NCBI RefSeq assembly: GCF_003334815.1
Contig: NZ_QOWO01000023.1
From: Escherichia coli
GTDB taxonomy: Bacteria > Pseudomonadota > Gammaproteobacteria > Enterobacterales > Enterobacteriaceae
Strand: one strand, 5' to 3'
DNA: 64,000 nucleotides
Part shown: positions 16,569 to 18,297 of the stretch, in pieces
How positions within the stretch are numbered: the first letter of the stretch is position 1
How the letters are laid out: every line of letters starts with the position of its first letter
Position numbers and translations under genes: made by a program
The notes under the pieces: model-generated
What the model was told of the DNA's origin: nothing
What the model saw: the letters and a program-made list of their open reading frames with translations, nothing else
The model's database searches: none

Positions 16569-16700
16569 CAGTTATATCTCCTCCGATGACGGTAATCGGG
16601 GGAGATAATATAAATTCCTGCTTATTGTATTTCTTCATACTACCTGGACAGGTCGTTAATCAGAATTGCGAGCCTGTACCACACCCTGCACGAAACCACT

Positions 16701-16767
16701 GCAACAGCTGTTGAAAAGCCGGAATGTACTCTTCATTGCAAACATTTCAGGGATGAAGTGAAGATGA
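16701..16767 (-). ncRNA. rdlC: Rdl antisense RNA of LDR copy 1 (approximate position)
   Basis: Placed by recalled spacing of rdl relative to ldr in E. coli K-12 (about 205-270 nt upstream of the ldr start, opposite strand); boundaries not verified from sequence. Confidence 0.3.
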
Positions 16768-16971
16768 ATTGCGACGTAGTATCCACACCAAGCCGGCGTT
16801 ATCCGGTGAGGCGCAATGTTGCGGGGCTTTATCCCTGGTGGCATTGGTTGCTGGAAAGAGAAAACCCCCGCACGTTGAGAGGTAAAACCTGACAACAAAA
16901 CGGGGGCTAATCTTGAAACCAGACACTTCAAGAATAGCCGCAAAATGTTGTCATTACAACAAGGCGGCTAT

Positions 16972-17079
16972 ATGACGCTCGCGCAGTTTGCCATGATTTT
17001 CTGGCACGACCTGGCAGCACCGATCCTGGCGGGAATTATTACCGCAGCGATTGTCAGCTGGTGGCGTAACCGGAAGTAA
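16972..17079 (+). CDS. ldrC: Ldr small toxic membrane peptide (35 aa), type I toxin
   Basis: ORF MTLAQFAMIFWHDLAAPILAGIITAAIVSWWRNRK, not listed in the ORF track because under 60 aa; identical in all three copies; A/B/C lettering assigned by position relative to kdsA. Confidence 0.85.
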   Translation: MTLAQFAMIFWHDLAAPILAGIITAAIVSWWRNRK

Positions 17080-17128
17080 GGTGAAAACGGGCGTCAGGCT
17101 GCCGTGATGGCAATATGCGCCCGAAACC

Positions 17129-17160
17129 GGCCGCAGGGGTAACAGCCTGCGGCCATTTTT
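17129..17160 (+). terminator. Terminator hairpin of the ldr transcript, copy 1
   Basis: ggccgcagg-(8 nt)-cctgcggcc hairpin followed by T-rich run, about 50 nt after the ldr stop. Confidence 0.6.
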
Positions 17161-17235
17161 GTCTTTATCTCTTCCACAAGTAAATATTGGCAACCCGAGC
17201 TGGAAGCATCATCCAGAGCACTCATGAAACGACTG

Positions 17236-17302
17236 CAACAGCTGTTGAAAAGCCGGAATGTACTCTTTATTGCAAACATTTCAGGGATGAAGTGAAGATG
17301 AA
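17236..17302 (-). ncRNA. rdlB: Rdl antisense RNA of LDR copy 2 (approximate position)
   Basis: Same placement rule as copy 1; boundaries not verified. Confidence 0.3.
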
Positions 17303-17506
17303 TTGAGACGTAGTATCCACACCAAGCCGGAATTATCCGGTGAGGCGCAATGTTGCGGGGGCTTTATCCCTGGTGGCATTGGTTGCTGGAAAGAGAAAAC
17401 CCCCGCACGTTGAGAGGTAAAACCTGACAACAGAACGGGGGCTAATCTTGAAACCAGACACTTCAAGAATAGCCGCAAAATGTTGTCATTACAACAAGGC
17501 GGCTAT

Positions 17507-17614
17507 ATGACGCTCGCGCAGTTTGCCATGATTTTCTGGCACGACCTGGCAGCACCGATCCTGGCGGGAATTATTACCGCAGCGATTGTCAGCTGGTGGC
17601 GTAACCGGAAGTAA
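17507..17614 (+). CDS. ldrB: Ldr small toxic membrane peptide (35 aa), type I toxin
   Basis: Identical 108-nt ORF, 535 bp downstream of copy 1. Confidence 0.85.
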   Translation: MTLAQFAMIFWHDLAAPILAGIITAAIVSWWRNRK

Positions 17615-17663
17615 GGTGAAAACGGGCGTCAGGCTGCCGTGATGGCAATATGCGCCCGAAACC

Positions 17664-17695
17664 GGCCGCAGGGGTAACAGCCTGCGGCCATTTTT
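17664..17695 (+). terminator. Terminator hairpin of the ldr transcript, copy 2
   Basis: Same hairpin plus T-run as in copy 1. Confidence 0.6.
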
Positions 17696-17770
17696 GTCTT
17701 TATCACTTCCACAAGTAAATATTGGCAACCCGAGCTGGAAGCCTCATCCAGAGCACTCATGAAATGACTG

Positions 17771-17837
17771 TAACAGCTGTTGAAAAACCGGAATGCACTC
17801 TTCATTGCAAACATTTCAGGGATGAAGTGAAGATGAA
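17771..17837 (-). ncRNA. rdlA: Rdl antisense RNA of LDR copy 3 (approximate position)
   Basis: Same placement rule as copy 1; boundaries not verified. Confidence 0.3.
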
Positions 17838-18041
17838 TTGAGTCGTAGTATCCACACCAAGCCGGCGTTATCCGGTGAGGCGCAATGTTGCGGGGGCTTT
17901 ATCCCTGGTGGCATTGGTTGCTGGAAAGAGAAAACCCCCGCACGTTGAGAGGTAAAACCTGACAACAGAACGGGGGCTAATCTTGAAACCAGACACTTCA
18001 AGAATAGCCGCAAAATGTTGTCATTACAACAAGGCGGCTAT

Positions 18042-18149
18042 ATGACGCTCGCGCAGTTTGCCATGATTTTCTGGCACGACCTGGCAGCACCGATCCTGGC
18101 GGGAATTATTACCGCAGCGATTGTCAGCTGGTGGCGTAACCGGAAGTAA
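18042..18149 (+). CDS. ldrA: Ldr small toxic membrane peptide (35 aa), type I toxin
   Basis: Identical 108-nt ORF, 535 bp downstream of copy 2. Confidence 0.85.
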   Translation: MTLAQFAMIFWHDLAAPILAGIITAAIVSWWRNRK

Positions 18150-18198
18150 GGTGAAAACGGGCGTCAGGCTGCCGTGATGGCAATATGCGCCCGAAACC

Positions 18199-18230
18199 GG
18201 CCGCAGGGGTAACAGCCTGCGGCCTTTTTT
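18199..18230 (+). terminator. Terminator hairpin of the ldr transcript, copy 3
   Basis: ggccgcagg-(8 nt)-cctgcggcc followed by TTTTTT. Confidence 0.65.
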
Positions 18231-18297
18231 GTATCCGGCACCCATGAAAAAAGTCTTAACGCAGAACGCTAATACTTTATTTTTCAAGCAAAAAAGA

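What the first reader, a model, noticed from the sequence alone, without database searches (positions are those of the whole stretch)
16690..18235. Triplicated LDR type I toxin-antitoxin array with identical toxin ORFs
Three tandem repeats with an exact 535-bp period lie between chaA and kdsA, each carrying an identical 108-nt ORF for a 35-aa hydrophobic peptide (MTLAQFAMIFWHDLAAPILAGIITAAIVSWWRNRK) followed by a hairpin terminator. This matches the known ldr/rdl long-direct-repeat system, where Ldr is a membrane-depolarising toxin and Rdl is a cis-antisense RNA. The three toxin ORFs are nucleotide-identical while the flanking repeat DNA carries SNPs, which suggests purifying selection or gene conversion focused on the ORF. 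The rdl coordinates I give are approximate.
Basis: partly seen in the sequence, partly recalled or inferred. Interest (0 to 1): 0.5.

Follow-up and report, generated by a model that had tools for sequence, protein, structure and literature searches.

The report
Known ldr/rdl toxin-antitoxin triple repeat
This is the well-known, already annotated ldrC-ldrB-ldrA / rdlC-rdlB-rdlA type I toxin-antitoxin repeat array of E. coli K-12-like strains, and its only unusual trait (three identical toxin genes) is a rare copy-homogenised variant, or an assembly artefact, not a sign of special selection.

Summary
Three identical 108-nt ORFs (16972-17079, 17507-17614, 18042-18149) lie exactly 535 bp apart between chaA and kdsA, each followed by a strong terminator hairpin.

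The identification is also right:
- The peptide is a full-length Pfam Ldr_toxin match (E 1.8e-24).
- Each unit carries an Rfam rdlD match (91 bits, threshold 50) on the opposite strand. Rdl covers the 5' UTR, 48-113 nt upstream of the start codon, not the ORF.
- The locus is ldrC/rdlC-ldrB/rdlB-ldrA/rdlA of E. coli K-12.

The evolutionary reading is not supported:
- The invariant stretch is 256 nt (leader, ORF, 3' UTR, terminator), not the ORF alone.
- MG1655 and a J53 reference differ from the window at nine positions: three in ldrB (I9T, S29G, one synonymous) and six in and beside rdlA. Each window state matches a neighbouring copy.
- The window's ldrB-position unit matches exactly in only 10 of 5,441 E. 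coli records.
- Across strains, copies group by position, not by strain.
- Ten of 14 variable ORF sites are non-synonymous.

Real gene conversion and repeat mis-polishing cannot be separated without reads. Verdict: already known, low interest. A predicted fold-back that masks the ldr start site is a side lead.

The parts
16693..17161 (+). LDR unit 1 (= LDR-C of K-12): ldrC transcription unit plus antisense rdlC
   Evidence: Three-way alignment; position next to chaA as in MG1655 (window is the reverse complement of MG1655 orientation)
17227..17696 (+). LDR unit 2 (= LDR-B position); ORF here is of the LdrA/C type, not the LdrB type
17762..18231 (+). LDR unit 3 (= LDR-A position), next to kdsA; rdl region here is of the rdlB type
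16972..17079 (+). ldrC ORF, 35 aa toxin
   Evidence: Pfam Ldr_toxin 1-35/35, E 1.8e-24; annotated WP_000170955.1 in an identical record
17507..17614 (+). ldrB-position ORF, 35 aa, identical to ldrA/ldrC (MG1655 has C, G, G at 17532, 17551, 17591: T9, synonymous, G29)
18042..18149 (+). ldrA ORF, 35 aa toxin
16859..16924 (-). rdlC antisense RNA (66 nt)
   Evidence: Rfam RF01813 91.8 bits, gathering 50, full model; fold -26.7 kcal/mol, z -5.1
17394..17459 (-). rdlB antisense RNA (66 nt)
   Evidence: Rfam RF01813 91.4 bits; fold z -4.5, single-stranded 5' tail of about 16 nt plus long stem-loop with U-tail
17929..17994 (-). rdlA antisense RNA; here identical to rdlB, whereas MG1655 rdlA differs at 5 positions inside it (17955, 17988, 17990-17992) and at 17996, 2 nt upstream of its 5' end
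17129..17160 (+). ldrC intrinsic terminator (9-bp G+C stem, 8-nt loop, T-run)
17664..17695 (+). ldrB-position intrinsic terminator
18199..18230 (+). ldrA intrinsic terminator
17324..17341 (+). Predicted 5' end of the ldr mRNA with 5'-terminal hairpin (equivalents start at 16790 and 17859). Candidate -10 TAGTAT at 17311-17316 (16777-16782, 17846-17851). Inferred, not mapped
   Evidence: Hairpin supported by compensatory changes across genera (4 of 6 pairs); -10 placed by my own reading of the ldrD upstream sequence printed, TAAAAT there; the promoter scan found no site at 9/12 or better
17439..17473 (+). mRNA hairpin GGCUAAUCUUGAA-loop-UUCAAGAAUAGCC whose 5' arm and loop are complementary to the single-stranded 5' tail of Rdl (equivalents 16904-16938, 17974-18008); the most variable segment of the unit between paralogues
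   Evidence: MFE structure, Rdl fold, variability
17448..17510 (+). Candidate leader reading frame: TTG 17448 inside the Rdl target, open to TGA 17508-17510, which overlaps the ldr ATG as ATGA (equivalents 16913-16975, 17983-18045). It may correspond to the published 'ldrX' idea. Weak evidence
   Evidence: frame relations differ between units and in ldrD
17625..17655 (+). 3' UTR element CGGGCGUCAGGCUGCCGUGAUGGCAAUAUGC predicted to pair with the ldr Shine-Dalgarno/start region (17476-17516) in the full-length mRNA (equivalents 17090-17120, 18160-18190)

Best explanation
The region is the chromosomal ldrC/rdlC-ldrB/rdlB-ldrA/rdlA array: three tandem copies of a type I toxin-antitoxin module. Each 535-bp unit produces two transcripts. 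(a) A roughly 370-nt ldr mRNA: long, highly structured 5' UTR of about 180 nt, the 35-codon ORF for a single-pass membrane peptide, a 3' UTR and an intrinsic terminator. (b) From the opposite strand, a 66-nt Rdl RNA complementary to the 5' UTR 48-113 nt upstream of the start codon. The Ldr peptide inserts in the inner membrane. When over-made it collapses ATP supply and arrests growth or kills (shown in the literature for LdrA, whose sequence equals all three peptides here, and for LdrD). Rdl keeps translation off after transcription. Its single-stranded 5' tail meets the loop of an mRNA hairpin. The duplex then hides a ribosome entry site in the leader (the candidate leader frame ending in ATGA on the ldr start) and is cut by RNase III. 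In addition, the ldr ribosome-binding site is predicted to be locked by pairing with the 3' UTR, as in hok mRNA. Shown here: the parts, their geometry, family membership and conservation of the geometry across genera. From the literature: toxicity, Rdl antidote action at the translational level, RNase III involvement. Inferred here: transcript ends, promoter positions, tail-loop contact, leader-frame coupling and the fold-back. The identity of the three ORFs comes from homogenisation of an array whose ancestral state (MG1655-like) had a distinct ldrB and a distinct rdlA. It arose either by two short gene-conversion tracts or by assembly/polishing of near-identical repeats.
For: - Peptide: Pfam Ldr_toxin, full length, E 1.8e-24; PDB LdrD 5LBJ, E 1.5e-10.
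- Antitoxin: three Rfam rdlD hits at 91 bits against a threshold of 50, on the minus strand.
- Terminators.
- Same locus annotated as ldrA-C/rdlA-C in MG1655. The window matches a J53 derivative 100% across the array and differs from MG1655 at 9 positions.
- LDR sequence is present in 5,426 of 5,426 complete E. coli genomes.
- The same ORF-rdl geometry occurs in Citrobacter, Kluyvera, Pseudocitrobacter, Salmonella and other Escherichia. Every Ldr ORF in the 16 loci scanned has an rdlD hit above threshold.
- Predicted mRNA fold: -167.5 kcal/mol, z -7.1. Local helices are supported by covariation: 11 pairs with double changes against 3.6 +/- 1.3 in shuffles.
- The start region is predicted to pair with the 3' UTR in 34 of 43 homologues. 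88% of cells are paired against 30-61% when the partners are slid. Kluyvera shows a compensatory U-A to A-U swap.
- Family-wide dN/dS is about 0.4.
- Literature: toxicity and Rdl action (PMC4147584, PMC8309996, PMC12643268); RNase III dsRNA at ldrD/rdlD (PMC7373196).
Against: - No transcript data for this sequence, so promoters and 5' ends are inferred. The sigma-70 scan found nothing at 9/12 or better.
- The leader-frame idea is weak. There is no ATG in it, its relation to the ldr start differs between units (ATGA overlap or in-frame), and two of the three frames are open anyway.
- The fold-back structure was derived from one of the sequences, which favours it in the slid control. Only 7 of its pairs show double changes, against 4.3 expected (19 of 500 shuffles reach this). 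It also competes with a local hairpin that covaries too.
- Reviews say the Rdl mechanism is still unknown (PMC8309996).
- A chromosomal rdlD or ldrD deletion gave little or no phenotype in one depolarisation study (PMC11997105).
Confidence: 0.93

Rival explanations
1. One reading: the three ORFs are identical because purifying selection or gene conversion acts specifically on the toxin ORF, while the rest of the repeat is free to drift.
For: In the window the ORF has 0 of 108 variable sites against 13 of about 362 outside it (my rough estimate of the chance of zero is about 0.03). Across genera the peptide is under moderate constraint (dN/dS about 0.4, length always 35 aa). In several tandem arrays of other species, paralogous ORFs differ only at synonymous sites.
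Against: The invariant run is 256 nt and covers leader, 3' UTR and terminator as well. MG1655, K-12 CETR3G40 and J53 CP028702 have 3 differences in the middle ORF, 2 of them non-synonymous. Six further differences from MG1655 lie in and just beside rdlA, outside any ORF. Among 23 natural chaA-kdsA units, 10 of 14 variable ORF sites are non-synonymous, and ORF diversity (0.024) exceeds that of the 3' UTR (0.013). Units group by position across strains; MG1655 unit 2 and SCZE5 unit 2 have 0 differences.
Confidence: 0.07
2. The homogenised state is real. Two short gene-conversion tracts in the strain's recent ancestry copied the ldrA/C-type ORF into unit 2 (at least 17532-17591) and the rdlB-type sequence into unit 3 (at least 17955-17996). 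This removed the LdrB peptide variant and the RdlA-specific 5' tail.
For: All 9 differences from MG1655 change a copy-specific base into the base of the neighbouring copies, in two compact clusters, while unit-specific markers upstream are kept. The same or more extensive homogenisation occurs in independent backgrounds: J53-p1-pV-hybrid-1, the natural isolate 184/2aE, Origami2-DE3, and 8 other records for unit 2. Intermediates with 1 or 2 of the 3 ORF changes exist. Tandem 98-99% identical repeats are good substrates for RecA-dependent conversion (general knowledge).
Against: It is rare (10 and 9 of about 5,440 records) and scattered, not clade-like. Two assemblies of the same lab strain J53 disagree. 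It needs two separate events in opposite directions. The window also lacks two 178-bp rtT repeats relative to K-12 records, so its source may handle repeats poorly.
Confidence: 0.45
3. The homogenised state is an assembly or polishing artefact. Reads from three 98-99% identical 535-bp units were mis-assigned and copy-specific variants were overwritten by the consensus of the other copies.
For: Same facts as above: rare, polyphyletic, and discordant between two J53 assemblies. The changed positions all move to the state of the other copies. Another tandem repeat in the window (rtT) is two units shorter than in K-12-type records.
Against: Other single copy-specific SNPs were kept (16898 A/G; the upstream markers; the 1-nt deletion in unit 1), which simple majority overwriting would also remove. 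In Origami2-DE3, two units moved to the minority state. I have no reads or assembly metadata for the window.
Confidence: 0.45

Closest known systems
ldrA/rdlA, ldrB/rdlB, ldrC/rdlC of E. coli K-12 MG1655 (b4419-b4424; LDR-A, -B, -C; Kawano et al. 2002, cited in PMC4147584)
   Same: Same locus (chaA-kdsA), same order, same 535-bp period, same unit anatomy. 1,732 of 1,741 bases are identical over 16560-18300. The LdrA and LdrC peptides are identical to all three peptides here.
   Different: Nine bases differ. The middle ORF here lacks the LdrB-specific T9 and G29 and one synonymous change. rdlA here has the rdlB sequence, so all three Rdl share one 5' tail.
ldrD/rdlD (LDR-D, between bcsG and yhjV), the experimentally characterised member
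   Same: Same architecture: 35-aa ORF, Rdl antisense to the 5' UTR, same conserved 5' UTR blocks, 3' UTR element and terminator. Rfam rdlD is built on it.
   Different: Single copy at another locus. About 80% nucleotide identity (H40). LdrA-LdrD identity is given inconsistently in the papers read (57% in PMC8309996, 74% in PMC12643268). The leader frame is fused in-frame to ldrD and has an ATG. The reported primary phenotype is nucleoid condensation, against an ATP drop for LdrA (PMC8309996).
hok/sok/mok of plasmid R1 and chromosomal hok loci
   Same: Working logic: stable toxin mRNA with a long leader; short unstable antisense RNA against the leader rather than the toxin start; proposed coupling through a leader ORF; RNase III cleavage; predicted fold-back that hides the start region (PMC4147584, PMC7373196).
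   Different: No homology. The peptide is Pfam Ldr_toxin, not Hok. Rfam sok matches the ldr leader only below threshold (27-29 bits against 59). 3'-end processing as the activation step is not shown for ldr.
Fst / RNAI-RNAII (par of pAD1) and the Fst/Ldr toxin superfamily
   Same: Small single-helix toxins with a P-x-x-x-G motif (P17...G21 here; G21 in 38 of 40 distinct ORFs) and a charged C-terminus. They are placed in one superfamily in the literature (PMC4147584, PMC8309996).
   Different: Gram-positive, plasmid-borne prototype. The antitoxin overlaps the 3' end and pairs through dispersed repeats. Membership was not tested here beyond the motif.
Ibs/Sib multi-copy type I modules of E. coli
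   Same: Several near-identical cis-antisense modules per genome, some in tandem. Cognate-specific repression is set by short variable regions (PMC2943612). Here the variable region is the Rdl 5' tail and its target loop.
   Different: Sib overlaps the whole ibs ORF; Rdl overlaps only the leader. Cross-talk among Rdl copies has not been tested, to my knowledge.

Membership tests
Ldr/Rdl (LDR) type I toxin-antitoxin | 35-aa hydrophobic peptide of the Ldr family | tested here: met
   Pfam PF13940 Ldr_toxin, residues 1-35 to model 1-35, E 1.8e-24; identical to MG1655 LdrA/LdrC; PDB 5LBJ LdrD, E 1.5e-10. NCBIfam returned no family at E <= 0.01.
Ldr/Rdl (LDR) type I toxin-antitoxin | Short RNA gene (Rdl, about 60-66 nt) on the opposite strand, complementary to the ldr 5' UTR | tested here: met
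   Rfam RF01813 full-length hits at 16859-16924, 17394-17459 and 17929-17994 on the minus strand, 91-92 bits against a gathering score of 50. The predicted fold is a stem-loop with U-tail and a free 5' tail.
Ldr/Rdl (LDR) type I toxin-antitoxin | Long direct repeat of about 530 bp; three tandem copies between chaA and kdsA in K-12 | tested here: met
   Period 535/535; flanks are chaA and kdsA.
Ldr/Rdl (LDR) type I toxin-antitoxin | Both RNAs are actually transcribed: stable ldr mRNA, unstable Rdl | not testable with these tools
   Only sequence-level signals: terminators, weak promoter-like hexamers read by eye, a conserved 5' hairpin. Transcripts are documented for ldrD/rdlD in the literature (PMC7373196).
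Ldr/Rdl (LDR) type I toxin-antitoxin | Peptide is toxic on overexpression and the cognate Rdl counteracts it | not testable with these tools
   Reported for LdrD/RdlD (PMC4147584) and for LdrA, same sequence as here (PMC8309996, PMC12643268). Not tested for this sequence.
hok/sok | Hok-family peptide and Sok RNA | tested here: not met
   Pfam gave only Ldr_toxin. Rfam sok RF01794 scored only 27-29 bits against a gathering score of 59, and on the sense strand of the ldr leader.
hok/sok-like regulation (works like, not member) | Toxin start region sequestered by long-range pairing with the 3' part of the mRNA | tested here: inconclusive
   Predicted in the MFE and in 34 of 43 homologues. 88% of cells paired against 30-61% slid; 36 cells with double changes against 12.7 in shuffles; but only 7 pairs against 4.3 (19/500), and the structure was derived from one member.
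hok/sok-like regulation (works like, not member) | Leader ORF (mok-like, 'ldrX') whose start is covered by the antisense RNA and whose translation is coupled to the toxin ORF | tested here: inconclusive
   A frame is open from 17421 to a TGA overlapping the ldr ATG, with TTG 17448 inside the Rdl target. The arrangement is not constant among units or in ldrD, and there is no ATG in the ABC-type units.

The most novel reading that the evidence does not exclude
The most novel reading not excluded has two parts. (1) The ldr mRNA is held translationally silent by a conserved fold-back between its ribosome-binding site and a 3' UTR element, plus an invariant GGCGCA/UGCGCC 5'-3' clamp. This would be a hok-like activation switch, which none of the papers I could read describes for ldr. 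(2) The hypervariable Rdl 5' tail and its target loop set which Rdl silences which ldr copy. If so, the (real) conversion of rdlA to the rdlB type in this strain would merge three formerly partly insulated modules into one cross-repressing set.
Probability: 0.25. Interest if true: 0.4.

Novelty: already known. Interest (0 to 1): 0.13.

Why it matters
It matters little as a discovery. These genes are named and annotated in E. coli K-12 (ldrA-C, rdlA-C), and the family has Pfam and Rfam models and a solved structure.

Three practical points remain:
- Identity between tandem paralogues in a single assembly is weak evidence for selection. Here the reference strains show the copies are normally different.
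- Near-identical 535-bp repeats are a place where either gene conversion or assembly polishing rewrites a few bases. Strain comparisons at this locus therefore need spanning reads.
- The mechanism by which Rdl blocks Ldr synthesis is still described as unknown in reviews. The comparative set gathered here (about 45 loci from six genera) gives testable structures: a 5' hairpin, a tail-loop contact site, and a fold-back of the start region on the 3' UTR.

Tried and rejected
- Tandem Repeats Finder returned nothing because the period exceeds its 500-nt limit. The repeat finder and direct indexing were used instead.
- NCBIfam gave no family for the 35-aa peptide. Pfam did.
- The sigma-70 scan found no promoter at 9/12 or better. 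I read weaker hexamers by eye: rdl TTGTAA-17-TATTCT at 17494-17489/17471-17466 on the minus strand, and an ldr -10 TAGTAT. These are marked as inference.
- Covariation within E. coli units plus ldrD was uninformative, with one compensatory pair. I therefore scanned genome contigs with a degenerate FWHDLAAP pattern. Four of the 44 loci were chance matches (L043, L044, L054, L059). One 'Bacillus' 503-nt contig looks like E. coli contamination.
- My first ldrD coordinates in alignment A2 were wrong (row MG_ldrD is shifted and truncated). That row was left out of the folding statistics and counts only as gaps.
- Conservation of a leader ORF (ldrX) could not be established.
- I considered using a series of commercial lab-strain assemblies as evidence for an artefact. 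The BL21 members turned out to have a different structure: a single LDR unit beside a deletion, against three units in NC_012971. That argument was dropped.
- I tested whether the window is one of the collection's records. It is not. It has private SNPs against J53 CP028702, CP068706 and 184/2aE, and no perfect 24.7-kb match.
- The Kawano 2012 review and the 2002 primary papers are not in the held library, so published transcript ends and any earlier description of the fold-back could not be checked.
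Full report
**1. What is in the sequence**

Three ORFs at 16972-17079, 17507-17614 and 18042-18149 (+ strand) are nucleotide-identical. They encode MTLAQFAMIFWHDLAAPILAGIITAAIVSWWRNRK, with start-to-start spacing of exactly 535 and 535 nt. The repeat finder gives the same period. The upstream part of unit 1 is out of register by one base because of a 1-nt deletion in a G-run. Tandem Repeats Finder was silent only because its period limit is 500.

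Each ORF is followed by GGCCGCAGG-N8-CCUGCGGCC and a T-run (-23.3 kcal/mol, z -3.7). The neighbours are chaA (ends 16568) and kdsA (18298-19152, minus strand).

**2. Identity**

- The peptide is a full-length match to Pfam Ldr_toxin (PF13940, E 1.8e-24) and to the solved LdrD peptide 5LBJ.
- On the minus strand of each unit Rfam finds a complete rdlD antitoxin RNA: 16859-16924, 17394-17459 and 17929-17994, at 91-92 bits against a gathering score of 50.
- Rdl therefore lies 48-113 nt upstream of the start codon, antisense to the 5' UTR and not to the ORF.
- In MG1655 the same interval is annotated kdsA-ldrA-rdlA-ldrB-rdlB-ldrC-rdlC-chaA. The window is in the opposite orientation, so its units 1, 2 and 3 are LDR-C, LDR-B and LDR-A.
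- Every one of 5,426 complete E. coli genomes has LDR sequence, with a median of five places per genome.

This is a known, named system (Kawano et al. 2002, as summarised in PMC4147584 and PMC8309996).

**3. The 'three identical ORFs'**

Inside the window, 11 of the 13 variable columns lie 114-280 nt upstream of the ORF. From -73 to +182 relative to the ATG (256 nt: part of the rdl region, leader, ORF, 3' UTR, terminator stem) there is no difference at all. The ORF is not singled out.

The window's array is identical to one record, J53-p1-pV-hybrid-1 (CP068706). It differs at nine positions from MG1655, K-12 CETR3G40 and the J53 reference CP028702:

| Positions | Location | Effect in MG1655 |
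|---|---|---|
| 17532, 17551, 17591 | middle ORF (ldrB) | T9, a synonymous change, G29 |
| 17955, 17988, 17990-17992 | inside rdlA | rdlA-specific sequence |
| 17996 | 2 nt upstream of the rdlA 5' end | rdlA-specific sequence |

At all nine positions the window carries the base of the neighbouring copies. The identity is a derived, homogenised state.

It is also rare. A diagnostic query that joins unit-2-specific upstream markers to the ORF has 100% matches in 10 of 5,441 records. The MG1655 state (3 mismatches) is the norm among about 1,250 close records. The analogous unit-3 query has 9 perfect matches, and only 26 records reach 99%. Only CP068706 and the Brazilian isolate 184/2aE carry both. 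184/2aE is even more homogenised and does not share the window's private SNPs, so the state is polyphyletic.

**4. Selection or conversion across strains**

In 23 units from 11 natural or reference strains with 1, 2 or 3 copies, units group by array position rather than by strain. MG1655 unit 2 and SCZE5 unit 2 have 0 differences in 465 nt, while MG1655 units differ from each other by 11-18. The three peptides of an array are usually different.

The ORF has 14 variable sites, 10 of them non-synonymous. Its diversity (0.024) is lower than that of the rdl region (0.067) and the upstream spacer (0.044), but higher than that of the 3' UTR and terminator (0.013). This does not support ORF-focused constraint or pervasive concerted evolution at this locus.

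On a wider scale the peptide is constrained:
- It is always 35 aa.
- dN/dS is about 0.4 over 40 distinct ORFs from six genera, with the codons fixed by my search pattern left out.
- In tandem arrays of other species, paralogous ORFs differ mostly at synonymous sites, while differences pile up in the spacer and at -65 to -40.

In an evenly spaced sample of 40 records, the chaA-kdsA array has 3 copies in about 45%, 2 in about 27% and 1 in about 25% (rough figures).

**5. Real conversion or artefact?**

For real conversion:
- The changes form two compact clusters.
- Other copy-specific markers are retained.
- Intermediates exist.
- The state recurs in independent backgrounds.

For an artefact:
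- The state is rare and scattered.
- Two assemblies of strain J53 disagree.
- The window also has two fewer 178-bp rtT repeats than K-12-type records.

The window is not any record of the collection. It has about 11-13 private single-copy SNPs in 64 kb, and the best 24.7-kb matches still have 3 mismatches. I cannot decide between the two without reads and give each about 0.45.

**6. How it most likely works**

From the literature:
- Overproduced LdrD kills and condenses the nucleoid, and RdlD counteracts it.
- LdrA (the same peptide as here) sits in the inner membrane, drops ATP within minutes and is treated as a pore former.
- Rdl acts on translation.
- An RNase III-dependent duplex of about 21 nt forms in the ldrD/rdlD overlap.
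- A leader ORF, 'ldrX', was proposed by analogy with mok. Reviews still call the mechanism unknown.

(Sources: PMC4147584, PMC8309996, PMC12643268, PMC7373196, PMC8167048.)

From the sequence:
- **mRNA fold.** The predicted mRNA (17324-17697 for unit 2) folds very stably: -167.5 kcal/mol, z -7.1.
- **5' hairpin.** It starts with a hairpin that shows compensatory changes across genera, in 4 of 6 pairs. This supports a 5' end near 16790, 17324 and 17859.
- **Rdl shape.** Rdl folds into a long stem-loop with a free 16-nt 5' tail.
- **Contact site.** That tail is complementary to the 5' arm and loop of an mRNA hairpin (17439-17473). This is the most variable part of the unit between paralogues, as expected for a determinant of cognate recognition.
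- **Leader frame.** A reading frame opens in the Rdl target (TTG 17448) and ends in a TGA that overlaps the ldr ATG. Its form is not conserved among units or in ldrD, so the coupling idea stays unproven.
- **Fold-back.** The Shine-Dalgarno/start region is predicted to pair with a conserved 3' UTR element in 34 of 43 homologues. On the alignment, 88% of cells pair, against 30-61% when the partners are slid. Covariation is modest. Two Kluyvera species show a U-A to A-U swap, and pairing is lost when Kluyvera heads are given foreign 3' UTRs. An invariant GGCGCA/UGCGCC pair links the 5' and 3' regions. This resembles the hok fold-back, but it is a prediction only.

**7. Distribution**

A degenerate DNA pattern for FWHDLAAP found Ldr ORFs in Citrobacter, Kluyvera, Pseudocitrobacter, Salmonella enterica subsp. 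arizonae and diarizonae, E. albertii, E. whittamii and others. In the 16 loci scanned, each ORF has an rdlD hit above threshold in the same geometry. Tandem arrays have arisen repeatedly, for example three copies in K. sichuanensis.

**8. Verdict**

The identification is correct and already known. The evolutionary inference is not supported as stated. The one unusual trait, three identical ORFs and three near-identical Rdl, is a rare homogenised state of uncertain reality. Interest is low. The RNA-structure predictions are a modest by-product.

Noticed in passing
window 1-700: The tyrT/tyrV locus has two tRNA-Tyr genes (51-132, 345-426) but only two RtT units (179-310, 476-607). The J53 assemblies and 184/2aE have four RtT units, so the window is 356 bp (2 x 178) shorter. 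There is also a cluster of differences at 443-530. This is either natural repeat-number variation or repeat collapse in the source assembly.
   Followed up: partly
window 2433, 4608, 7142, 15062, 24125, 28212, 30780, 39439 (also 49831, 57381, 57756, compared with the J53 reference only): Single-copy SNPs absent from both J53 assemblies (positions up to 39439) and, up to 28212, from 184/2aE. Most are G:C to A:T. No complete E. coli genome in the collection matches 18300-43000 perfectly; the best have 3 mismatches. The source is a K-12-like strain not in the collection, or a sequence with some errors.
   Followed up: partly
window 16823-16974, 17357-17509, 17892-18044 (+): Rfam 'sok' (RF01794) matches the sense strand of each ldr 5' UTR below threshold (27-29 bits, gathering 59, E about 1e-3). 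This is probably chance or shared G+C-rich stem features. I did not pursue it.
   Followed up: no
L063 6595-8010 (Kluyvera sichuanensis), L034, L047, L027, L030, L061, L064: Tandem ldr/rdl arrays exist in other genera and species with periods of 465-539 bp (1,383 bp in one Pseudocitrobacter MAG). Peptides within an array are often identical, while the Rdl 5'-tail/target-loop segment (-65 to -40) differs.
   Followed up: partly
L065 (BL21(DE3) CP081489) versus L066 (BL21(DE3) NC_012971): One BL21(DE3) assembly has a single LDR unit joined to a truncated ROK-family gene next to lolE, with chaA missing. The reference BL21(DE3) has chaA plus three units with three different peptides. This is a large deletion ending in the LDR array, or a misassembly.
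   Followed up: no
alignment A2, columns 283-296 (window 17483-17496 and equivalents): A small hairpin GUUGU-CAU-UACAAC just upstream of the ldr Shine-Dalgarno shows a clean C-G to U-A covariation (25:14). The same bases are predicted to take part in the long-range fold-back, which suggests alternative conformations. On the other strand this segment overlaps the putative rdl -35.
   Followed up: partly
window 56610-56688 (-): Rfam C0299 sRNA, 111.9 bits. This is an ordinary K-12 feature.
   Followed up: no
L051 (503-nt contig labelled Bacillus sp. EB106-08-02-XG196): The contig carries an LdrD-like ORF (MPFAELGMAFWHDLAAPVIAGILASMIVNWLNKRK) on a contig with coverage 0.66. It is most likely Escherichia contamination in that assembly.
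   Followed up: no
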